Shown piece after piece: positions 6,228 through 33,827 of a stretch of DNA of 64,000 nt (positions are counted from its first letter, which is position 1; every line of letters begins with the position of its first letter). A model generated the notes under the pieces. It saw only the letters and a program-made list of their open reading frames with translations. It was not told where the DNA came from and searched no databases. The DNA comes from Candidatus Eiseniibacteriota bacterium. Lineage in GTDB: Bacteria; Eisenbacteria; RBG-16-71-46; CAIMUX01; VGJL01. The translations under genes and the position numbers were made by a program. The stretch spans positions 1-64,000 of the forward strand of contig JBHGAY010000018.1 in NCBI GenBank assembly GCA_041946735.1. The letters run 5' to 3'.

Positions 6228-6617
6228 CTACCGATAGATGGCGCGGACCTGTCCCCAGGTGGTCGACTCGGTCGCGGTCTCCGCCTCGACCTCGATCTCT
6301 CCCTCCATCATCGGGCAGTGCAAGGAGCAGAAGTAGTAGTAGTCCCCGGCGCCGCTGGCGACCCACACGAACGTATCGCCCTGATTCAACGTTCCGGAAT
6401 CCCAGAGGCCGTCGCTCGTGCAGTCGACGCCGCTGGTCGAGGTGTGGGGAATCGCGTCGAGATTCGTCCAACGGACACTGTCACCGGGCGCGATCGTCAG
6501 CGTCGAAGGGTTGAACGCGAAGTTCTGAATCTGAACGTCGTAGACGTCGGCATGGGCAAAGCCGGCCACGAGGGCCGACGCGGCCAGCGCCGCGAGCACG
6601 AGGAGCGATCTCTTCAT
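6228..6617 (-). CDS. Secreted cupredoxin (plastocyanin/amicyanin-like) with C-terminal TWGQVRAIYR tail
   Basis: Signal peptide; FAFNPSTLTIAPGDSVRWTN, H..., YFCSLH..MMEG type-1 copper ligands; AAGGAGG RBS. Confidence 0.85.
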   Translation of the reverse strand: MKRSLLVLAALAASALVAGFAHADVYDVQIQNFAFNPSTLTIAPGDSVRWTNLDAIPHTSTSGVDCTSDGLWDSGTLNQGDTFVWVASGAGDYYYFCSLHCPMMEGEIEVEAETATESTTWGQVRAIYR

Positions 6618-6886
6618 CGAAGCCTCCTTCACTGAAGCATGAGATGGGAAAAGTGAAACTCACGGGCGCACCTCCACGCTAGCAGCGTCGCGGCCGGGAC
6701 GGAACCGATACGGATGAGCGCCGGCTCAAGAATGAGACCGTGGCGACGCGGCCGCCGCCGCGGCGTTCGCCGAACAAGTCGCGGGCGCGCGATGCGAGCG
6801 CGGTTCGGGCGCGCCGAGCGCGCGCTGCGGCGGCGTCCACCGGATGCGAACGGAGGTCCTCCAGCGATCAGCGCGACGGCGGTCGG

Positions 6887-8452
6887 TCAGCGCCGCTCAT
6901 CCGCCGGCATCGCGAGGAACTGGCCGATCCACGCCTCTTCCGCCTTGCGAAGGTCGGCGATCGACAGGTTCGCCGATGGGGAAGCCTGCTGCAGGATGGC
7001 GAACGCCCATCTCGTTCCATCGGGATGGTCGAGATAGCCGGCGATCGAGCTGACTCCCGAATCCCCCAGCGTTCCGGTCTTCGCGCGCAGGGATGGCGCG
7101 CGACCTTCGCGGAAGCGACGCTCCAGCGTCCCTTCGTCTCCTGGACGAGGGAGCGAGGCGTAGAGATCGGGAAAGACCCTTTCCTTGGCAGCCGCCCACT
7201 GCAGCAGAGCGACGAGCTGCGCGGCGGAGATGCGATTCTCGACCGAGAGGCCGCTCCCGTCGACAAGCCGCGGCGCCGGTGAGGCGGGCACGGCTTCGGC
7301 GAACCACGCGGCCACGCGTGCGCTCCCCGCCGCTGCGCTCCCCTGCTCTCCGATGTCGACGAGCAGCAGATCGGCCATGAGGTTGTTGCTGTATCCGTTG
7401 ACCGACCGGACGATTTCGCCGAGCGGCAAGGACGACATCTCCGCCAACACGCGCGCGTCGACCGGAGGAGCGCCCCCGCGGATGCTTCCCGAGCTCGACA
7501 CCCCGTTCTGCGCGAGAAGCCCGCGCAGGATGCCGCCGGCGAGCATCGCCGGATCGGAGCAGGACCGATACACCCCGCCCCCGGGCGGTCCCGCCATCCC
7601 GACGGAGCCACGCACCACCCACACCTCGCCCCCGGCTGGATCGCGGCGCCGCGACACAGCGACCGGCTCGCCTCGTCCCGAGCCGCTCGTCGTCACCGCG
7701 GCGTCCACGGCCACGCCGGGGATCGGGAACGGATCGAGGAAGACTTCGGCCGGCGCGCCGTCGCGGGAGCCGGCCCGGATGCGGAGGAAGAGGTTGTTGA
7801 AGTCGACGGCGAGGATCGAGACGGGGGCGGCGTAAGGGCTGTCGGTGTTCTCGGCCGATCGTCCTTCTTGCAGATCGAGGACGATCGGAGCGTGCACGAC
7901 GAGGTCGCCCGCCACCTCTCGCAAGCCGGTCGCGGCAGCCGCCTCGTGAGCGAGGAGCCATAGGCGCTCGTGGACGAGGAATGGATCCCCCTCGCCCGAC
8001 AGGTAGAGATTCCCCTCGAGGCGTCCATCCTGAAGAGGGCCGTCGGCCCAGAGGCGCGTGACGAACCGGTGGCCGGGCCCGAGCAGATCGAGCGCGGCGG
8101 CCGTGGTGACGATCTTCGCGACGCTGGCGGGAGGCAGAAGGCGGTTCTCGTCGAGCGCGATCGCCGGCGATCCGCCGGCGATCGGAGCGAACGCCACGCT
8201 GGCGGCGACGCCGGGCGCCGGCCGGGCGAGCGTCGCCGCGGCAGCGCCTACGCTGCCGGCCGGAAGCAGAAACGCCAGCGCGAGAAACGATGCGGGTAGG
8301 AGCCGGCGCCGCGCGAAGAAGCGCACGCGGCGAACGTTCCGGGCAGCGAGCCGGCGGTCGGTCCGCAGTGGCAGCGGCGGCGGCGGCGCGATCCTCTTCG
8401 GCTCTCTCTTCGTCTTCGTCTCCTCCTTCCCCTTCGCCGGAGCTTCGCTCAA
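6887..8452 (-). CDS. dacB: D-alanyl-D-alanine carboxypeptidase/endopeptidase (PBP4, peptidase S13)
   Basis: PASVAK (SxxK), GEGDP, SNN, DGSGLS, AKTGTL; start uncertain (TTG overlapping the pheT stop). Confidence 0.9.
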   Translation of the reverse strand: MSEAPAKGKEETKTKREPKRIAPPPPLPLRTDRRLAARNVRRVRFFARRRLLPASFLALAFLLPAGSVGAAAATLARPAPGVAASVAFAPIAGGSPAIALDENRLLPPASVAKIVTTAAALDLLGPGHRFVTRLWADGPLQDGRLEGNLYLSGEGDPFLVHERLWLLAHEAAAATGLREVAGDLVVHAPIVLDLQEGRSAENTDSPYAAPVSILAVDFNNLFLRIRAGSRDGAPAEVFLDPFPIPGVAVDAAVTTSGSGRGEPVAVSRRRDPAGGEVWVVRGSVGMAGPPGGGVYRSCSDPAMLAGGILRGLLAQNGVSSSGSIRGGAPPVDARVLAEMSSLPLGEIVRSVNGYSNNLMADLLLVDIGEQGSAAAGSARVAAWFAEAVPASPAPRLVDGSGLSVENRISAAQLVALLQWAAAKERVFPDLYASLPRPGDEGTLERRFREGRAPSLRAKTGTLGDSGVSSIAGYLDHPDGTRWAFAILQQASPSANLSIADLRKAEEAWIGQFLAMPADERR

Positions 8453-10341
8453 TCCTCGAGCGAGAAGCGAAGCCGCGGAGGCATGCCGCCGAGCGTCTCG
8501 ATCGAGATCTCTGCGAGCACCGCGGGATTCTCGAGACCGAAGGCGGCCAGCCGCTCGGGGTCCACCTCGCCGAGGATGCCGGCCGGCGTCCCGTCCTCGG
8601 TCTTCACCGACGCGCATCGTCCCGCCAGGAACGGAGGCGCTGCGGCCGGCTCCCAGACGAGCGAGCGGCCGAACTCGCGCGCGACCGCTTCGACGATGGC
8701 GCGCACTTCGGTGAATCCCGCCTTCGGCCCGATCATGCCGATGCCGAGCATGCGATGCTCGCGCGCGCCCGTCTCGGCCCCCTCGTCGAGCCAGGTGACG
8801 TCACCGACCTCGAAGACGCGCTGCGGCAGCGGCTGGTGCCGGTTGTGCTCGAAGAGGGCGAGGAGTCCCGGGAGCAGGCTCGTCCGCACGCGCGTCTGCT
8901 CGCCGGAGATCGGGTTCTCGATCCGGACGGCGCGGGGATCCGGCGCGCGGCCGAGAGCCGCGTCGTGCGCCTCGTCGGAGGTGAGGACGATCGAGAGCGT
9001 CTCGAAGAATCCGAGGCCGGTCATCGCCCGCCGCGCGGCGGCGCTGCGCGTCTCGAGGGGCCGGGGGAGGCCGACCGTCCGCGCGGGAAGCAGCGACGGC
9101 AGGATGTTGTGGTAGCCGTAGCCGATCGCCACGTCCTCCATCAGGTCTCGCTCGTGCAGGATGTCGTTGCGGTAGGCGGGAACTTCGACCTCGATGCGTT
9201 CCTCGGAGAGAATGCGCGCCCCGTGACGCATGCGAAGAAGCTGGCGCCGCGTCTCGGCCGCATCCAGCGGCACGCCGAGGAGCTTCGCGGTGGCGGCGAC
9301 GCCGATCGTGACCGGTTGCGGGGCGAGATCGGGCGTGGCGACCGGCCCGGGCCGCGCGGCCTTCCCTTCCGGATCGCTCGCCCCCTCGATCGTGACGGCC
9401 CGCAAGCGGACGCCGGGAAGGCTCTCGAGGAGCGACGTCACGAGGACGTTCAGCGTCCTCTGCACGATCCGCTCCCCCGTTCCGGTCACGTCGGCGAAGA
9501 GCCGGCGCGAGCCGGCGTGCACCCGCGTCCCCTCGCTGTTGATCACCGGCGGCATCGAGAGCACGCGCCCTTCCGCGTCCCGCAGGATCGGATAGCGGGC
9601 GAGCGGGGCGAGCAGATGGCGGTACGCCCGTCCCTTCGGGTGCTCCTCGAGGATCTCGCGAAGCGTCCGCGCCGCCTCCGGGCGGCCGGCCGCGCCGACG
9701 GCGCCGAGCGGCACGAAGCGGTAGCGGTCTGGATCCTCCGTCGTGTATTCGAGGTCGTTGGCGATCGTGTCGAAGTCGTAGACCCCGATCGAGGCGAGCT
9801 TGCGGTTGCGGCCGAGCGCCCAGTGCAGGTTCTCCTGCAGCTTCATCAGGATCTTGATCGAGTCGCCGTCGAGCCGCACGTCCTCGAGGACCGCACAGGC
9901 GAGAAACGGCCTCGACGACCGGGCGTCGCGAACCGACGGATCGACCCGCACGCGCGCCGCGGGCGGACCGACATCGTAGGCGACGGGACCGACCTCCACG
10001 TCGAGATATCCACGGAGAGCGCGCGCGAGCCCGCCCGGATCGAACATGTCGGGGCGTACGGCGAGCAGCTCCATCCGCACGACCTCGAGATCGGGGATCT
10101 CCTCGAGCGTCTCCGGCTCGGCGCGATGATCGGCGTCGCAGGAGGGACAGCGCGCGGGCAGCGCTTCGGTCTGCGTCCGCTCCTCGATCCATCCGCACCT
10201 GCGGCAACGCGTGCGCGGCAGCCGCGCATAGCCCTCGACGTCGCAACCGATCTCCTCGAGGACGCGAAGCAGACGCTCGGCCGGGATTTCGGTCCCGAGG
10301 CGCGCGCGCAGGGCATCGACCGGAATGCCGATCACCGGCAT
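8449..10341 (-). CDS. pheT: Phenylalanyl-tRNA synthetase beta subunit, short archaeal/eukaryotic type
   Basis: MPVIGI start, AVRPDMF, LQENLHWALGRNRKLASIGVYD, SMPPVINSE, YRNDILHERDLMEDVAIGYGY, RTSLLPGLL; 630 aa with no B2 or B8 domain. Confidence 0.93.
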   Translation of the reverse strand: MPVIGIPVDALRARLGTEIPAERLLRVLEEIGCDVEGYARLPRTRCRRCGWIEERTQTEALPARCPSCDADHRAEPETLEEIPDLEVVRMELLAVRPDMFDPGGLARALRGYLDVEVGPVAYDVGPPAARVRVDPSVRDARSSRPFLACAVLEDVRLDGDSIKILMKLQENLHWALGRNRKLASIGVYDFDTIANDLEYTTEDPDRYRFVPLGAVGAAGRPEAARTLREILEEHPKGRAYRHLLAPLARYPILRDAEGRVLSMPPVINSEGTRVHAGSRRLFADVTGTGERIVQRTLNVLVTSLLESLPGVRLRAVTIEGASDPEGKAARPGPVATPDLAPQPVTIGVAATAKLLGVPLDAAETRRQLLRMRHGARILSEERIEVEVPAYRNDILHERDLMEDVAIGYGYHNILPSLLPARTVGLPRPLETRSAAARRAMTGLGFFETLSIVLTSDEAHDAALGRAPDPRAVRIENPISGEQTRVRTSLLPGLLALFEHNRHQPLPQRVFEVGDVTWLDEGAETGAREHRMLGIGMIGPKAGFTEVRAIVEAVAREFGRSLVWEPAAAPPFLAGRCASVKTEDGTPAGILGEVDPERLAAFGLENPAVLAEISIETLGGMPPRLRFSLED

Positions 10342-11855
10342 AGAGGCACCCCTTTCAGCCATTCCGTGTCGGGAAGGTAGAGGTCGCGAATGTCGTTCAG
10401 GTCGTAGCGCATCATCGCGAGCCGCTCGAGCCCGAGGCCCCACGCGAGCACCGGCGCGCGGCAGCCGACCGGCTCGGTCACTTCGGGCCGGAAGACGCCG
10501 GCCCCTCCCATCTCGACCCAATCCTTCCTCTTGTCGAACCAGATGTAGACCTCGACGCTCGGCTCGGTATACGGGAAGAAGCCGGGGCGGAAGCGGAACT
10601 GCTCGAACCCCATCTTGCGGTAGAAGGCAGCCAGCGTCCCGAGCAGGTTCGCGAAGGACGCTTCCGGGTCCACCACGATCCCGTCGACCTGATAGAAGAC
10701 CGGCAGGTGCTTGTAGTCGATCGTCTCGCGACGGAAGACCCTCCCGACCGTGAAGACGCGGCGCGGGCCGATCGGGTCGGCGGCAAGGGCGCGCATCGTC
10801 GTCGCCGTCGTGTGCGTGCGCAGGACCGTCCGCCGCGCCTTCTCGGGATCCCAGCGATAGCGCCACCCGATCGAGCCGGTCTCCCCTCCGTCCTCGTGCG
10901 TCCGCATCACGCGCTCCACGAGAGCGGGATCGCCCGGCAGCGGGGCCGATGCGGGCGCGGAGAGGTAGAAGGTGTCCTGCATCTCGCGCGCCGGATGGTC
11001 CTGTGGCTGGAAGAGCGCGTCGAAGTCCCAGAAGGCGGACTCGACGATCGAGGAGCCGATCTCCTGAAAGCCCATCTCCAGGAAGACGTGGCGCGTCTCG
11101 TCGAGGATGCGCTGAAGCGGATGCTCCTTGCCGGGAACGACCGGCTCGGTCGCGAGCGTCACGTCGTAGGGACGGAGGCGGACCTCGCGCCACTTGCCGC
11201 TCGCGAGCAGCTCGGGGGTGAGCTGGGTCACCTCGATCGCCGCCTCGATCCCCGCGTCGAGACGGGAGCGCCCCTCCGGCGTCAGCCGCGCGACGCGGCG
11301 CGCCTTCTCGCGCACCTCGCACCACGACGGCCGTCCCTTCAGCTGCGCGAGCGCGTCGCCGAGCGCGACGCCGGCCGCTTCCAGCTCCGTCTCGGTCGCC
11401 TTGCCGCCCGCCGCATCGAGGGTACGCAGGAGCCGCTCGTCGTCGGTCGGAGGCGGCTCGGCGCCGATCAGCGCCTCCAGGCGCGGGCCGTCCTTCCTCG
11501 CCCAGCCTCGCCCGGTCAGCCAGCGCAGGCTGCTTCCCGCCTCCTTCGGATCGAGGCCGGACCTCGGGGCCACCTCAGCCATCGCGAGCGATCCGCCCGC
11601 CTCGCGCAGCGCGCGCAGCACGCGCCGTTCCGGCAGGCCTTCCTCGATCCAGCGCCGTCCGTCGGGACGAAGGACGATCTCTCGGTACGGTTGCTCCTCC
11701 ACCGCGACCCATCCCTCAGCCTGCAGCAGCACGGCCGCCGCCGCCACTCGCGCCTGGTCGATCCCCAGCGCTGCCGCCGCCTCGTCGATCCGCTCCCCCT
11801 CGGGCCGCGCGCCGAGGCGCTCGAGCAGGCGGACCTGCTCCTCAGGCAACCGCAT
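10332..11855 (-). CDS. pheS: Phenylalanyl-tRNA synthetase alpha subunit, archaeal/eukaryotic type
   Basis: 507 aa with long N-terminal extension; FWDFDALFQPQDHPAREMQDTFY, HEDGGETGSIGWRYRW, LRTHTT, FFPYTEPSVE, AWGLGLERLAM. Confidence 0.95.
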   Translation of the reverse strand: MRLPEEQVRLLERLGARPEGERIDEAAAALGIDQARVAAAAVLLQAEGWVAVEEQPYREIVLRPDGRRWIEEGLPERRVLRALREAGGSLAMAEVAPRSGLDPKEAGSSLRWLTGRGWARKDGPRLEALIGAEPPPTDDERLLRTLDAAGGKATETELEAAGVALGDALAQLKGRPSWCEVREKARRVARLTPEGRSRLDAGIEAAIEVTQLTPELLASGKWREVRLRPYDVTLATEPVVPGKEHPLQRILDETRHVFLEMGFQEIGSSIVESAFWDFDALFQPQDHPAREMQDTFYLSAPASAPLPGDPALVERVMRTHEDGGETGSIGWRYRWDPEKARRTVLRTHTTATTMRALAADPIGPRRVFTVGRVFRRETIDYKHLPVFYQVDGIVVDPEASFANLLGTLAAFYRKMGFEQFRFRPGFFPYTEPSVEVYIWFDKRKDWVEMGGAGVFRPEVTEPVGCRAPVLAWGLGLERLAMMRYDLNDIRDLYLPDTEWLKGVPLCR

Positions 11856-12651
11856 CGGTCGTTCCCCTTTCTCGTTGATCGTCGTCCACTCCGCCGGCGC
11901 CGCCGCCGGGGCCGTCCCCGCGACGCAACTCCTGCCGGAGATGATGCAGCCCCACGATGGCGGCGGTCTCCGCGCGAAGGCGCGTCGGCCCGAGGCTCCA
12001 GAAAATCGCCCCCGCCACGCGCAGCCTCTCCCTCTCCTCGGGCGAAGCCCCGCCTTCGGGGCCGATCAGCAGGCGCACCGGCGAACCGCGCGCAGCGCCC
12101 GCGGCGCCCGCAGCGCCCGCCATCGGCGGGAGCGCCGCTTCCCCCTCGGGATCGGCAAGGATCACACGCGCCTCGCCTCCCGGCAACTCCGGCGGCTCGG
12201 CGTCGCGGAGATCGGGCAGCCAGCTCCGCTCCGACTGCTTCATCGCCTCGCGCACCATGCGCTCCCAGCGGCGCCGGGCGGCCGGCGTCATCTCTCCGAC
12301 GTTCCGCCTCCAGAGGATCGGCACCAGCGCATCCGCCCCGACCTCGACCGCCTTCTCGAGCATCCACTCCATCCGGGCCCGGTTGTGGAGCAGGGGGAAT
12401 CCCAGCTCGATCTCCGGCGCCGGGCGGCTCTCGTGGCGGGCTTCGAGGCGGATGCCGTCGAGGGCTTCCAGCGTCCCTTGAAGTCGCACGACGTAGATCC
12501 CACCCATTCCGTCTGTTACGCGGCACGTGTCGCCGGCTCGCAGACGAATCACCCGCAGCAGGTGCCGCGCTTCTTCCTCCGGAAAGCGGACGCTCCCATC
12601 GGGGCGGAACGATTCGGGCGGGATGTAGAAAGGGTGCGGATCGCGCGCCAT
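11842..12651 (-). CDS. rsmE: 16S rRNA m3U1498 methyltransferase
   Basis: HLLRVIRL, EKAVEVG, EAMKQSER, IGPEGG, LGPTRLRAETA. Confidence 0.92.
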   Translation of the reverse strand: MARDPHPFYIPPESFRPDGSVRFPEEEARHLLRVIRLRAGDTCRVTDGMGGIYVVRLQGTLEALDGIRLEARHESRPAPEIELGFPLLHNRARMEWMLEKAVEVGADALVPILWRRNVGEMTPAARRRWERMVREAMKQSERSWLPDLRDAEPPELPGGEARVILADPEGEAALPPMAGAAGAAGAARGSPVRLLIGPEGGASPEERERLRVAGAIFWSLGPTRLRAETAAIVGLHHLRQELRRGDGPGGGAGGVDDDQRERGTTDAVA

Positions 12652-12668
12652 CGGATCGCCGGGTCGGG

Positions 12669-13826
12669 TTAGGAGAAGGTGTCCCGCACCCGGTCGAAGA
12701 ATCCCTTCTCGGCCTTCGGCGCGTGGTCGCCCTCGAGACGGCGGAGCTGCTCGTACAGATCCTTCTCTCGCGCGGAGAGCTTGTCGGGGATCCGGATCTC
12801 GACGCGGATCAGCTCGTCCCCCGGCTGCTTCGATCGCAGCGAGCGGATCCCCTTGCCGCGCAGCCGCAGCACCTTCCCCGACTGGATGCCGGCCGGCACG
12901 TCGACCAGCACGCGCCCGGTCAGCGTAGGCACCTCGACCTTGGTGCCGAGCGCGGCGAGCGGCGGCGTGAGCGTGATTCGGGTCAGGATGTCGTCGCCAT
13001 GGCGCTCGAACACCTCGTGCGGCTTCTCCTGGAAGATGACGATCAGGTCGCCGGGTGGCGCGCCGCGCAGGCCCTGGTGCCCGTGGCCACGCATCGTCAT
13101 GTAGTTGCCTTCCATCACTCCCGCCGGGATGTTGACGCTCACCGTCTCGCTCCCGTCGATCCGCCCTTCGCCGCCGCACTGGGTGCAGGGATTCTTCACC
13201 ATCTGCCCCTCGCCGCGGCAGCGCGGGCAGGTGGTGACGTTGACGATCTGCCCGAAGAACGAGCGCTGCACCTGGCGGATCTGTCCGGACCCCTCGCATT
13301 GCGGGCAACGCGTCACCGACCCGCCCGGCTCCGAGCCGCTGCCGTTGCACCGAGGGCAGAGGACCTTCTTCTTCACGCGGATCTTCTTCTCGGCGCCGGC
13401 CGCGACCTCCTCCAGCGTGAGCTTCAGACGAATCTGGATGTCGCCGCCGCGCATCTCGCGCCGCGCGAAACCTTCCCCTTCGTCCTCGAAGCCGAACCCG
13501 CCGCCGAAGCCGCCGAACTCCCGCATGAACGCCCGTAGCGCGTCGGAGAGATCGAACCCGGGGGCGGTGCCGCCGCGCGTGCCGCCTGCCGCGTAGCTTT
13601 GATCGACCCCCGCGTGCCCGAAGCGGTCGTAGGCCGACCGCTTCTCGCTGTTCGTCAGGATCTCGTAGGCCTCCGTGGCCTCCTTGAACTTCTCCTCCGC
13701 CTCCTTGTTGCCGGGATTGCGGTCGGGATGGTACTGCAGGGCCAGCTTGCGGTACGCCTTCTTGATCTCGTCAGCCGCGGCGGAGCGTTCCACGCCCAGC
13801 ACCTCGTAGTAGTCCCGTTTCGCCAA
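12669..13826 (-). CDS. dnaJ: Chaperone DnaJ
   Basis: J-domain HPD motif, G/F region, four CxxCxGxG repeats. Confidence 0.97.
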
Positions 13827-13958
13827 GCTCGAAGCCTCCTTCCACCCGTGCGTCCCTTCGCTCGCGTCCTGGGAATCCGCCGGAGGCGAGGGGACCGCCC
13901 GATCCTATCCCATCCCGCGAGCCCTGCGCACCCGCGGCCGTTCGGATCGCTCGAGCGT

Positions 13959-14900
13959 CTACTCCGCGCCCTCCGCGGATCGCCGCCGCCCGCGGAGCGC
14001 CCGATGCACCTTCGAGGGAAGCGCGTGGCCGAGGCGCGGCTCGATTGCGGCCGCCGCCTCGACGACGGCGTCGAGGTCAACGCCGGTCTCGATGCCGATC
14101 CCGCGGAGGAAGTAGACGAGATCCTCCGTCGCCAGGTTGCCGCCCGCTCCGGGGGCGTAGGGGCAGCCGCCGAGACCGCCGGCCGAGCTGTCGAACGTCG
14201 CGGCTCCCTCGTCGAGCGCCGTCGCGACGTTGACGATCCCCATGCCGTAGGTGTCGTGGAAGTGGAACGCGAGCTTCTCGATCGGAAGCAGCGCGCGCGC
14301 GGCGGCGAGGAACGCTTCCACCTCGCGCGGCGTCGCGGCTCCGATCGTGTCGCCGACGGACACTTCGTCGCAGCCGAGGGCGAGGAGCGACGCCGCGATC
14401 GAGACCGCCTTCGCCGGATCGATCCCCCCTTCGTAGGGACAGACGAACGCGGTCGATAGATAGCCGCGCGTCCGAAGCCCTTCCACCCGCGCCCTCTCGA
14501 GGACGGGACGGAAGCGGTCGAGCGACTCGGCAATCGAAGCGTTCGTGTTGCGCCGGTTGAACGTCTCACTCGCCGCGGTGAAGACGGCGATCGAGCGGAT
14601 GCCGCAGGCGAGCGCGCGCTCGAGCCCCTTCTCGTTCGGAACGAGCGCCGTGTAGACCGTCCCTTCGCGAGGGACGAGGGCCCGCGCGACCTCCTCGGTC
14701 GCCGCCATCTGCGGCACCCAACGCGGGCTCACGAACGCGCCGACCTCCACTTCGGGCAGGCCGGCGGCGGCGAGGCGCGCAACCAGGCGCACGCGCTCCT
14801 CGACCGGGATCGGCTCCGCCTCGTTCTGCAGGCCGTCGCGCGGCCCGACTTCGACGATCCGCACGCGCTTCGGCGTTCGGGCGGATCCCGCGCCGGTCAC
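13959..14900 (-). CDS. Hydroxymethylglutaryl-CoA lyase (LiuE)
   Basis: [36 protein letters not shown]. Confidence 0.93.
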
Positions 14901-26694: not shown

Positions 26695-26790
26695 TGGCGG
26701 GAACGTGTGGGAATCGAACCCACCTCGGACACGGAGATGCCCGACAGAGGATTTGAAGTCCTTGGGGCCCACCAGAACCCATTCGTTCCC
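26695..26790 (-). tRNA. selC: tRNA-Sec(TCA)
   Basis: 96 nt; anticodon loop CT-TCA-AA, 6-bp D stem with TGGT loop, long variable arm, G73 discriminator plus CCA. Confidence 0.92.
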
Positions 26791-33751: not shown

Positions 33752-33827
33752 TGGTGCGGCCTCGCAGAGTCGAACTGCGGACTTCCAGATTTTCAGTCTA
33801 GCGCTCTACCAGCTGAGCTAAGGCCGC
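33752..33827 (-). tRNA. tRNA-Phe(GAA)
   Basis: GCGGCCTTAGCTCAGCTGGTAGAGCGCTAGACT-GAA-AATCTGGAAGTCCGCAGTTCGACTCTGCGAGGCCGCACCA. Confidence 0.97.

What the first reader, a model, noticed from the sequence alone, without database searches (positions are those of the whole stretch)
8449..11855. Archaeal/eukaryotic-type PheRS in a bacterial dnaJ-rsmE-pheST-dacB operon
Seen: alpha is 507 aa with a long N-terminal extension and the HExGG..GSxGWxYxW insert. Beta is 630 aa, starts MPVI and lacks the B2 OB-fold and B8 anticodon-binding domains. Known: typical bacterial alpha/beta are about 330-350 and 800 aa; the archaeal-type enzyme is known in bacteria mainly from some spirochaetes (Borrelia, Treponema). 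Inference: inter-domain transfer that replaced the native enzyme and has been ameliorated to host GC.
Basis: partly seen in the sequence, partly recalled or inferred. Interest (0 to 1): 0.7.

Follow-up and report, generated by a model that had tools for sequence, protein, structure and literature searches.

The report
Archaeal-type PheRS replacing the bacterial one
This Eisenbacteria genome charges tRNA-Phe with an archaeal/eukaryotic-type enzyme instead of the usual bacterial one, and the enzyme belongs to a large, little-described bacterial branch of that type marked by an extra zinc-ribbon.

Summary
pheS (10332-11855, 507 aa) and pheT (8449-10341, 630 aa) encode an archaeal/eukaryotic-type PheRS. 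Beta scores 429.6 bits on TIGR00471 (cut-off 282.65) and 113.4 on bacterial TIGR00472 (cut-off 402.65). No B2 or B8 domain is detected. Alpha matches NF003210 over its full length. The genome (94.8% complete) holds no bacterial-type copy. The ancestral site infC-rpmI-rplT-[pheST]-zapA-rny-ymdB is intact but lacks pheST.

The enzyme is not a lone archaeal import. It sits in a clade whose 80 named members are all from bacterial records labelled Planctomycetota, WOR-3, Eremiobacterota, KSB1, Myxococcota and others. This "long form" carries a conserved 4-Cys rubredoxin-like insert in beta domain B1. The insert is in 71 of 75 long-form loci and 1 of 109 short-form representatives. The immediate donor was therefore probably another bacterium.

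All 28 sampled genomes of the window's order carry the long form. Three other Eisenbacteria families carry a different, Nitrospira-like short form, which marks a second replacement. tRNA-Phe keeps the bacterial U20.

I found nothing in print beyond the spirochaete case. Interest is moderate: a new variant of a known kind.

The parts
10332..11855 (-). pheS: PheRS alpha subunit, archaeal/eukaryotic type, 507 aa
   Evidence: NF003210 554.6 bits (cut-off 350) over residues 1-505 and TIGR00468 384.7 bits. Best solved relative is human cytosolic alpha 3l4g_A, E 3e-87, aligned 10-507.
11241..11855 (-). alpha N-terminal extension (about residues 1-205), winged-helix DNA-binding-fold domains
   Evidence: Pfam MarR_2 at residues 5-56 and HTH_IclR at 78-123. 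It aligns with the N-terminus of human alpha. Klipcan et al. 2010 (PMC3275996, passages read) describe three such domains as typical of the archaeal/eukaryotic type.
10353..11168 (-). alpha class II catalytic core (residues 230-501)
   Evidence: Pfam tRNA-synt_2d, E 1.5e-89. The strings GRVFRRE (residue 371) and GLGLERL (residue 473) are present; that they are class II motifs 2 and 3 is my recollection.
   Evidence: Regex match in the translation.
10332..10341 (-). 10-nt overlap ATGCCGGTGA between the pheS stop and the pheT start
   Evidence: Read directly. Of 69 pheS-pheT pairs in related loci, 42 have the same 10-nt overlap and 8 have a 13-nt overlap.
8449..10341 (-). pheT: PheRS beta subunit, archaeal/eukaryotic type, long form, 630 aa
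   Evidence: TIGR00471 429.6 bits against TIGR00472 113.4 bits. AlphaFold2 model has mean pLDDT 90.7. Foldseek: human beta 3l4g_B TMq 0.79 / TMt 0.84; P. horikoshii fragment 2cxi_A TMt 0.94.
10087..10221 (-). 4-Cys zinc-ribbon / rubredoxin-like insert in beta domain B1 (about residues 41-85; C46, C49, C65, C68)
   Evidence: The four Cys are at least 90% conserved in 30 long-form sequences. The motif is in 71 of 75 long-form loci, 29 of 31 long-form representatives, 1 of 109 short-form representatives and 0 of 120 hits of the Nitrospira-like search. Block pLDDT is 85-95. Weak Pfam RUBY_RBDX hit, E 0.004. Atlas structural matches to rubredoxin-like domains, TM 0.5-0.58.
9112..9309 (-). beta B5 domain (residues 345-410)
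   Evidence: Pfam B5, E 1.1e-20.
8503..9087 (-). beta catalytic-like module (residues 419-613)
   Evidence: Pfam tRNA_synthFbeta, E 1.2e-41.
11842..12651 (-). rsmE (16S rRNA methyltransferase), overlaps the pheS start by 14 nt
   Evidence: Pfam Methyltrans_RNA and PUA_4; start found. Found upstream of pheS in 3 of 4 order relatives L008-L011.
12669..13826 (-). dnaJ, 17 nt upstream of rsmE
   Evidence: Pfam DnaJ, DnaJ_CXXCXGXG and DnaJ_C. Upstream of pheS in 4 of 4 loci L008-L011 and in 10 further loci, nine of which fall in the order's clade; the tenth, L069, was not in that beta tree and groups with the order in the alpha tree.
6887..8326 (-). dacB-like S13 peptidase, 122 nt downstream of pheT; the adjacency is not conserved
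   Evidence: Pfam Peptidase_S13, E 3.5e-68. Probable GTG start at 8326. No dacB hit in L008-L011.
33752..33827 (-). tRNA-Phe(GAA), the only one found in the genome and the substrate of this enzyme
   Evidence: ARAGORN. It has G34 A35 A36, A73, U20, G30-C40 and A31-U39, by my numbering of the 76-nt gene.

Best explanation
pheS and pheT encode the cell's only phenylalanyl-tRNA synthetase, an (alpha-beta)2 enzyme of the archaeal/eukaryotic architecture. Alpha carries the catalytic core plus N-terminal winged-helix domains that take over tRNA binding. Beta carries B1, the B3/4 editing domain, B5 and the catalytic-like module, without the bacterial OB-fold (B2) and anticodon-binding (B8) domains. 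The two genes are translationally coupled through a 10-nt overlap and travel as one unit. An ancestor of this Eisenbacteria order acquired the pair, most likely from another bacterium carrying the same long form with a zinc ribbon in B1. The pair landed downstream of dnaJ-rsmE. The native bacterial-type pheST was then lost from its site between rplT and zapB/zapA. The enzyme charges a tRNA-Phe that stayed bacterial in the D-loop (U20). Shown here: type, sole copy, empty ancestral site, clade membership, conservation of the Cys4 insert and of an editing-site Asn. Inferred: activity, zinc binding, direction of transfer, and any role of the insert.
For: Type: HMM scores, domain content, solved relatives, fold match and Atlas structure match to archaeal clusters, TM 0.85/0.96.

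Sole copy: in G000 (94.78% complete) no TIGR00472 match reaches the cut-off, and there is a single pheS. The same holds in 5 of 5 other long-form genomes, two of whose record titles say 'complete genome' or 'chromosome, complete genome' and a third 'chromosome'.

Replacement: of 151 sampled genomes of the phylum, 31 score over the TIGR00471 cut-off. These include 27 of the 28 own-order genomes; the 28th (G091) has a 211.6-bit fragment covering profile positions 42-226, which I read as cut by a contig end. Of the other 119, 116 have only weak matches, most in open frames of about 800 aa, which I read as bacterial-type beta. All 6 bacterial-type loci checked read infC-rpmI-rplT-pheS-pheT-...-rny-ymdB (rpmI hit in 5 of 6). 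G000 reads infC-rpmI-rplT-zapB-zapA-rny-ymdB with no pheST.

On an RpoB tree the order (SH-aLRT 99) is sister to bacterial-type family f13 (SH-aLRT 90).

Bacterial donor: the beta tree has a long-form clade of 80 rows (support 100) in which all named rows are bacterial, with the order's 15 rows (support 100) inside it. The alpha tree recovers the same main groups. pheS lies directly upstream of pheT in nearly all these loci.

Editing retained: N268 aligns with P. horikoshii Asn217, which Klipcan et al. name as an editing-site residue. N268, D284 and T286 are invariant in 30 long-form sequences.

Old event: GC 0.71 and GC3 0.89-0.90, like the neighbouring genes.
Against: No enzyme assay, expression data or metal analysis was done.

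Most genomes are metagenome bins, and NCBI labels of several loci (for example 'uncultured Enterobacterales' and 'Burkholderiales') are probably wrong, so the list of phyla is approximate.

The large trees are FastTree with local support only. The rooted tree has a very long outgroup branch (1.88 on each side), leaves the long forms as an unresolved basal set, and contains only one short-form row traceable to an archaeon (P0167, Bathyarchaeota). I could therefore not test whether some unsampled archaeal group carries the long form and was the donor.

The direction of transfer among bacterial phyla is not resolved.

The tallies include one unpublished genome (G015, bacterial-type). No sequence was taken from it.
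Confidence: 0.8

Rival explanations
1. Direct transfer from an archaeon into the Eisenbacteria ancestor, as proposed for the spirochaetes.
For: The architecture is archaeal/eukaryotic. Andam and Gogarten 2011 give the precedent (PMC3191353, passages read).
Against: The nearest relatives of both subunits are all from bacterial records. The Cys4 insert shared with them is nearly absent from short forms (1 of 109 representatives). The clade is not nested in the sampled short forms.
Confidence: 0.07
2. The long form is not a transfer from Archaea at all. It is an old bacterial lineage of the archaeal/eukaryotic-type enzyme, sister to the archaeal/eukaryotic one, kept in some phyla and passed among bacteria. 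The window's order still got it horizontally.
For: In the tree rooted on bacterial-type beta, the short forms make one clade (SH-aLRT 92) and the long forms lie outside it. The long form spans about 31 clusters at 50% identity and many phylum labels.
Against: The root rests on a very long outgroup branch. The short-form sample is the 150 representatives most like the query, not all of archaeal diversity. Distribution is patchy: 20 of 101 Planctomycetota and 32 of 151 Eisenbacteria.
Confidence: 0.2
3. Binning or assembly artefact: an archaeal contig placed in a bacterial bin.
For: The genome is a 72-contig assembly.
Against: The genes overlap bacterial rsmE and lie between dnaJ and an S13 peptidase and murB on one stretch of DNA. 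The arrangement recurs in 14 related loci. All 28 sampled genomes of the order carry the type. GC3 matches the neighbours.
Confidence: 0.01
4. The pair is an extra paralogue with another role, and the true bacterial-type PheRS lies in the unassembled 5% of the genome.
For: Completeness is 94.78%.
Against: The ancestral rplT-zapA site is assembled and empty. In one search most genomes of the order show a single pheT-like match, including those listed at 99-100% completeness; a few show two to four, which are fragments of one frame in G089 and were not examined in G140. Both subunits match their models over nearly their full length, with an editing-site residue conserved.
Confidence: 0.02

Closest known systems
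Human cytosolic and archaeal PheRS (PDB 3l4g; P. horikoshii beta fragment 2cxi)
   Same: Same domain set and fold. Alpha aligns over 10-507 with human alpha, E 3e-87. Beta to 3l4g_B has TMt 0.84 and to 2cxi_A TMt 0.94. The editing-site Asn is conserved.
   Different: Identity is 26-31%. Beta has an extra insert of about 45 residues with four Cys in B1, and is 630 aa against about 550-590 aa. The host is a bacterium, and its tRNA-Phe has U20 where yeast and A. pernix use G20 as an identity element (review PMC9976931, section 33 read).
Archaeal-type PheRS of Spirochaeta, Borrelia and Treponema (Andam and Gogarten 2011, PMC3191353)
   Same: A bacterial clade in which both subunits of the archaeal type replaced the bacterial enzyme, so the trait marks that clade.
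   Different: Spirochaete beta is given as 514-573 aa and groups with Thermococcales. Here beta is 630 aa with a zinc ribbon and groups with other bacteria. I had no named Treponema or Borrelia sequence in my trees, so their relation to the long form is untested. One record labelled Spirochaetota (L056) does carry the long form.
Short-form archaeal-type PheRS of Nitrospira and of Eisenbacteria families f12, f15 and f16
   Same: Also archaeal-type, also the only pheT-like match in those genomes (one of the four, G096, was not fully listed), and also with pheS directly upstream of pheT.
   Different: Only 30-34% (beta) and 35-38% (alpha) identical to the window's proteins. None of the 120 hits of that search has the Cys4 motif. 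It is nested among short forms beside a Bathyarchaeota-linked cluster. It has a separate origin.
Bacterial-type PheRS (T. thermophilus 1pys, E. coli 3pco)
   Same: Same reaction; homologous core, B5 and catalytic-like module.
   Different: TIGR00472 scores 113.4 bits against a cut-off of 402.65. No B2 or B8 domain is detected. Alpha is 507 aa, not about 340 aa.

Membership tests
Archaeal/eukaryotic-type PheRS (PheRS-A) | Beta subunit matches the archaeal-type model above its curated cut-off | tested here: met
   TIGR00471 429.6 bits, cut-off 282.65.
Archaeal/eukaryotic-type PheRS (PheRS-A) | Beta lacks the B2 OB-fold and the B8 anticodon-binding domain | tested here: met
   None of the six Pfam families listed for beta at E<=0.01 is a B2 or B8 domain. 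The TIGR00472 match covers only profile positions 408-691 of 798. Klipcan et al. state that B8 is missing in this type.
Archaeal/eukaryotic-type PheRS (PheRS-A) | Alpha has an N-terminal extension of DNA-binding-fold domains before the class II core | tested here: met
   NF003210 554.6 bits over residues 1-505. MarR_2 and HTH_IclR hits. Full-length alignment to human alpha.
Archaeal/eukaryotic-type PheRS (PheRS-A) | Beta fold matches solved archaeal/eukaryotic beta | tested here: met
   3l4g_B TMq 0.79 / TMt 0.84; 2cxi_A TMt 0.94, rmsd 2.5.
Archaeal/eukaryotic-type PheRS (PheRS-A) | Editing-site Asn (P. horikoshii Asn217, human Asn238) in B3/4 | tested here: met
   N268 aligns with Asn217 and is invariant in 30 long-form sequences. 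The residue is named in PMC3275996. Further editing residues (L202, S211, D234, T236) are recalled only; their aligned positions L253, S262, D284 and T286 are conserved.
Archaeal/eukaryotic-type PheRS (PheRS-A) | Phe-tRNA ligase activity as an (alpha-beta)2 tetramer | not testable with these tools
   No assay was possible. Inferred from its being the sole copy of an essential function.
Archaeal/eukaryotic-type PheRS (PheRS-A) | Cognate tRNA-Phe with G20, an identity element in yeast and A. pernix | tested here: not met
   All 41 Eisenbacteria tRNA-Phe genes read, plus 2 from other phyla, have U20 by my numbering. The rule comes from PMC9976931, section 33. This is a feature of the substrate, not of the protein family.
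Bacterial-type PheRS (PheRS-B) | Beta matches TIGR00472 above its cut-off, with B2 and B8 present | tested here: not met
   113.4 bits against 402.65. No match over the cut-off anywhere in G000.
Spirochaete lineage of archaeal-type PheRS (Thermococcales-like) | Both subunits group with Thermococcales and with Spirochaeta, Borrelia and Treponema | not tested
   No named Thermococcales, Treponema or Borrelia sequences were available to my trees. The beta length differs (630 aa against 514-573 aa).
Bacterial long-form clade (defined here) | Beta of about 600-630 aa with a CxxC...CxxC insert in B1, and grouping with the clade in both subunit trees | tested here: met
   C46, C49, C65 and C68 are present. 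Clade support is 99-100. The alpha tree agrees.

The most novel reading that the evidence does not exclude
The zinc-ribbon long form is a distinct, old, bacteria-only lineage of the 'archaeal/eukaryotic' PheRS architecture: sister to the archaeal/eukaryotic enzymes rather than derived from a modern archaeon. It has adapted to bacterial tRNA-Phe (U20), perhaps through the Cys4 insert in B1. If so, the PheRS-A / PheRS-B split would not follow the Archaea/Bacteria split, and nature would already hold A-type enzymes that cross the reported orthogonality barrier with bacterial tRNA-Phe.
Probability: 0.2. Interest if true: 0.75.

Novelty: new variant of a known kind. Interest (0 to 1): 0.5.

Why it matters
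**PheRS as a domain-split marker.** PheRS is a textbook case of an aaRS with a clean bacterial versus archaeal/eukaryotic split. The beta gene is, as I recall, a standard bacterial marker (TIGR00472) in phylogenomic marker sets. The data here show the other type is common in bacteria: 32 of 151 sampled Eisenbacteria and 20 of 101 sampled Planctomycetota, in at least two separate lineages. This affects marker-based trees and completeness estimates for those groups.

**A usable clade marker.** The replacement gives a shared derived character for an Eisenbacteria order.

**Orthogonal-pair engineering.** These are natural A-type enzymes working with U20 tRNA-Phe. [quoted passage not shown]

**An untested structural element.** The conserved Cys4 insert has not been studied experimentally.

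Tried and rejected
**1. A stand-alone tRNA-binding protein as a stand-in for B2.** G000 encodes a 144-aa OB-fold tRNA-binding-domain protein (my reading of its weak match to the B2 part of TIGR00472; Pfam was not run on it), at C12:110886-111317. I asked whether it replaces the missing B2 domain in trans.
- In Eisenbacteria, a homologue (E<=1e-12) occurs in 32 of 32 A-type genomes and 2 of 119 others.
- In Planctomycetota it occurs in 18 of 20 A-type and 69 of 81 other genomes (E<=1e-8), so there is no link there.
- The RpoB tree shows only two independent A-type events in Eisenbacteria, so the association has no statistical weight. It is not adopted and is kept only as a lead.

**2. tRNA co-adaptation.** I expected G20 in genomes with the A-type enzyme. 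All have U20.

**3. Invalid RpoB tree.** The first RpoB tree is invalid because my script picked wrong-frame ORFs in high-GC DNA. I redid it from the match coordinates. G096 rpoB was read through 4 stops as X and sits on a long branch.

**4. Naming the unnamed representatives.** Two cluster look-ups gave organism names for only 2 of 20 clusters: a 'Gemmatimonadota' MAG and Bathyarchaeota. The archaeal side of the trees is therefore almost unnamed.

**5. Promoter and terminator scan of 6700-14300.** It found 0 promoter-like and 2 terminator-like sites, no more than in shuffles. It is uninformative about operon limits.

**6. Atlas feature search with the insert alone.** No usable hit.

**8. Literature.** Seven searches found no description of archaeal-type PheRS in Eisenbacteria, Planctomycetes or Nitrospira, or of a zinc ribbon in beta. 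This covers only the held open-access library and bioRxiv.
Full report
**What is there.** On the minus strand the window carries five genes in a row:
- dnaJ (12669-13826)
- rsmE (11842-12651)
- pheS (10332-11855, 507 aa)
- pheT (8449-10341, 630 aa)
- an S13 D-Ala-D-Ala carboxypeptidase (6887 to about 8326)

The spacing is a 17-nt gap, a 14-nt overlap, a 10-nt overlap (ATGCCGGTGA) and a 122-nt gap. The pattern scan found no terminator-like site between dnaJ and dacB on that strand, but it is no better than shuffles.

**Type of enzyme.** The HMM scores are decisive.
- Beta scores 429.6 bits on TIGR00471 (archaeal type, cut-off 282.65).
- Beta scores 113.4 bits on TIGR00472 (bacterial type, cut-off 402.65), matching only profile positions 408-691.
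- Alpha scores 554.6 bits on NF003210 (cut-off 350) over residues 1-505.

Pfam finds B5 and the catalytic-like module in beta, with weak B1 and B3_4 hits, and no OB-fold or anticodon-binding domain among the six families listed. In alpha it finds winged-helix domains ahead of the class II core.

The closest solved chains are eukaryotic and archaeal:
- beta: 8s8b_C, human 3l4g_B, P. horikoshii 2cxi_A
- alpha: human 3l4g_A, E 3e-87, aligned over 10-507

An AlphaFold2 model of beta built from 30 relatives has mean pLDDT 90.7. It matches 3l4g_B at TMq 0.79 / TMt 0.84 and 2cxi_A at TMt 0.94. This fits the description of the archaeal/eukaryotic form by Klipcan et al. 2010: three N-terminal DNA-binding-fold domains in alpha, and B8 missing (PMC3275996, passages read).

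**Sole copy, and a true replacement.** G000 is 4.89 Mb in 72 contigs and 94.78% complete. It has no TIGR00472 match over the cut-off and only one pheS.

I sampled 151 genomes of the phylum; names on the best protein hits say Candidatus Eisenbacteria. Results:
- 31 genomes score over the TIGR00471 cut-off.
- Of the 28 genomes of the window's order, 27 are among these. One of them (G089) passes only when its three match fragments are summed. The 28th (G091) has a 211.6-bit fragment covering profile positions 42-226, which I read as cut by a contig end.
- Four further genomes of families f12, f15 and f16 also pass.
- Of the other 119 genomes, 116 have only weak matches, most in open frames of about 800 aa, which I read as bacterial-type beta. 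Three have no match.

Most A-type genomes show one pheT-like match, so the two types do not appear to coexist; G140 showed two and G089 four, the latter being fragments of one frame.

In 6 of 6 bacterial-type loci the genes read infC-rpmI-rplT-pheS-pheT-...-rny-ymdB (rpmI hit in 5 of 6). This context is also reported for other FCB phyla (PMC9727166, one passage read). In G000 the same site reads infC-rpmI-rplT-zapB-zapA-rny-ymdB with pheST absent. The new genes therefore arrived at a different place and the native pair was then deleted.

The arrangement dnaJ-(rsmE)-pheS-pheT recurs in 4 of 4 fetched relatives of the order. It also recurs in 10 further loci, nine of which fall in the order's clade; the tenth (L069) was not in that beta tree and groups with the order in the alpha tree. 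dacB was not adjacent in the four loci checked. GC and GC3 of pheS (0.710 / 0.898) and pheT (0.713 / 0.887) match the neighbouring genes. That fits an old event but does not date it.

**Where it came from.** A phmmer scan of 1.84 billion representatives shows a sharp step. About 31 clusters of 600-630 aa align from residue 1 at scores mostly above 400 bits. Proteins of about 550 aa then align only from about residue 86, at 340 bits or less.
- In a FastTree of 149 rows the long proteins form one clade (support 99), with the window's order inside it.
- A scan of species genomes found 588 stretches encoding relatives. Only the best 80 were returned.
- All 80 come from bacterial records, labelled Eisenbacteria, Planctomycetota (including the complete genome of Candidatus Uabimicrobium amorphum), WOR-3, Eremiobacterota/Xenobia, KSB1, Fermentibacteria, Chitinivibrionales, Myxococcota, Acidobacteriota, Nitrospinota, Gemmatimonadota and one Spirochaetota single-cell genome.
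- Some TPA labels are clearly unreliable.
- In the named tree these form a clade of 80 rows (support 100) made of lineage-specific groups, with the window's order as 15 rows (support 100).
- The alpha tree recovers the same groups and the same sister pairs.
- pheS sits directly upstream of pheT in nearly all loci. Of 69 pairs, 42 share the 10-nt overlap and 8 have a 13-nt overlap. The two genes move as a unit.
- Five of five other long-form genomes lack a bacterial-type beta.
- In Planctomycetota, 20 of 101 sampled genomes have the archaeal type. In 13 the match starts at profile position 30-42, as in long forms; in 7 it starts at position 1.

The immediate donor of the window's genes was therefore most likely a bacterium.

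**The insert.** Long forms carry about 45 extra residues inside domain B1, with C46, C49, C65 and C68 conserved in at least 90% of 30 sequences. Counts of the CxxC...CxxC motif:
- 71 of 75 long-form loci
- 29 of 31 long-form representatives
- 1 of 109 short-form representatives (in a different N-terminal setting)
- 0 of 120 hits of the Nitrospira-like search

The model is confident across the insert: block pLDDT is 85-95, with strands at 35-46, 52-54 and 79-91. Pfam gives a weak rubredoxin-like hit (RUBY_RBDX, E 0.004). The Atlas model of residues 34-93 resembles rubredoxin-like domains at TM 0.5-0.58, which is weak for so short a piece. I read it as a zinc ribbon. Metal binding and function are untested.

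**A second, independent replacement in the same phylum.** Families f12, f15 and f16 carry a short form that is only 30-34% (beta) and 35-38% (alpha) identical to the window's proteins.
- Its closest named relatives, at about 50% identity, are from Nitrospira, including Ca. N. bockiana and Ca. N. nitrificans.
- In a rooted tree, this group plus Nitrospira (SH-aLRT 100) nests among short forms beside a cluster linked to Bathyarchaeota.
- On an RpoB tree (one gene, quick search), the window's order (SH-aLRT 99) is sister to bacterial-type family f13 (SH-aLRT 90). Families f12, f15 and f16 lie at the base of a different clade (SH-aLRT 95) that holds bacterial-type families f5, f8, f9, f10, f11 and f17.

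These are two separate events.

**Ultimate origin.** In the tree rooted on bacterial-type beta, the short forms form a clade (SH-aLRT 92). The long forms lie outside it as an unresolved basal set. Three things weaken this result: the outgroup branch is very long, the short forms are a biased sample, and nearly all of them are unnamed. I leave open whether the long form is an ancient import from Archaea or an old separate lineage.

**How it works with a bacterial tRNA.** The only tRNA-Phe found in the genome lies in the window (33752-33827, minus strand). By my numbering it has G34 A35 A36 and A73, which are the universal identity set. It also has G30-C40 and A31-U39, which are recognised by the human enzyme. 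At position 20 it has U, as in E. coli, not the G20 used by yeast and A. pernix (PMC9976931, section 33 read).

All 41 Eisenbacteria tRNA-Phe genes I read have U20 and A73: 17 from long-form genomes, 4 from short-form genomes and 20 from bacterial-type genomes. So do those of a WOR-3 genome and of Uabimicrobium; the other 3 of the 5 genomes tried gave no BLAST hit. The tRNA did not shift towards the archaeal pattern. [quoted passage not shown] If that holds, these enzymes have adapted to bacterial tRNA-Phe, and the insert is one candidate for how. That last step is speculation.

Editing is probably kept. N268 aligns with P. horikoshii Asn217, which is named as an editing-site residue. N268, D284 and T286 are invariant in the long-form alignment.

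**Literature.** Andam and Gogarten 2011 describe the spirochaete case: both subunits from a Thermococcales-like source, with beta of 514-573 aa. AARS Online and a 2020 review list only the A, B and mitochondrial forms (passages read). Seven full-text searches found nothing on this type in Eisenbacteria, Planctomycetes or Nitrospira, or on the insert. The library covers open-access papers and bioRxiv only.

**Verdict.** First, the type is widespread in bacteria. Second, the window's genes came from within a bacteria-only long-form branch. Counts that include the 151-genome samples contain one unpublished genome (G015), counted as bacterial-type. No claim depends on it.

Noticed in passing
G000 contig C12:110886-111317 (-); locus L002:1435-1869: A stand-alone 144-aa OB-fold tRNA-binding-domain protein (read from its weak match to the B2 part of TIGR00472; Pfam not run). 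In the Eisenbacteria sample a homologue occurs in all 32 genomes with archaeal-type PheRS and in only 2 of 119 others. In Planctomycetota it is common whatever the PheRS type: 18 of 20 against 69 of 81.
   Followed up: partly
window 33752-33827 (-) and loci L098-L137: The tRNA-Phe acceptor stem is nearly fixed (GCGACCC) in 19 of 20 bacterial-type genomes and 4 of 4 short-form genomes. It takes 10 different sequences among the 17 long-form genomes. Six genes (74 nt as called by ARAGORN), which by my matching of handles to one search are all of family f4, also lack an encoded CCA end. Relatedness is not controlled and the cause is unknown.
   Followed up: partly
window 26695-26790 (-): ARAGORN calls a tRNA-SeC(TCA) gene of 96 nt on this contig, which suggests selenocysteine use.
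   Followed up: no
locus L046 / G152 (CP070758, labelled Gemmatimonadota): This 5.0-Mb chromosome carries the long-form pheST. Its RpoB branches outside the Eisenbacteria rows next to the outgroup, on a long branch. Its true phylum was not checked.
   Followed up: no
protein P0154 (663 aa): A representative that starts with alpha-subunit sequence and continues as beta. It is either a called ORF running across the pheS-pheT overlap or a real alpha-beta fusion. Not examined.
   Followed up: no
window 6228-6632 (-): A small protein of 134 aa with what looks like a signal peptide lies between murB and dacB. From its sequence I judged it cupredoxin-like, but I did not scan it.
   Followed up: no
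loci L047, L072, L096, L083 and protein P0148: A few long-form beta subunits have lost some or all of the four Cys while keeping the insert's length. Metal binding may therefore be dispensable in some lineages.
   Followed up: no
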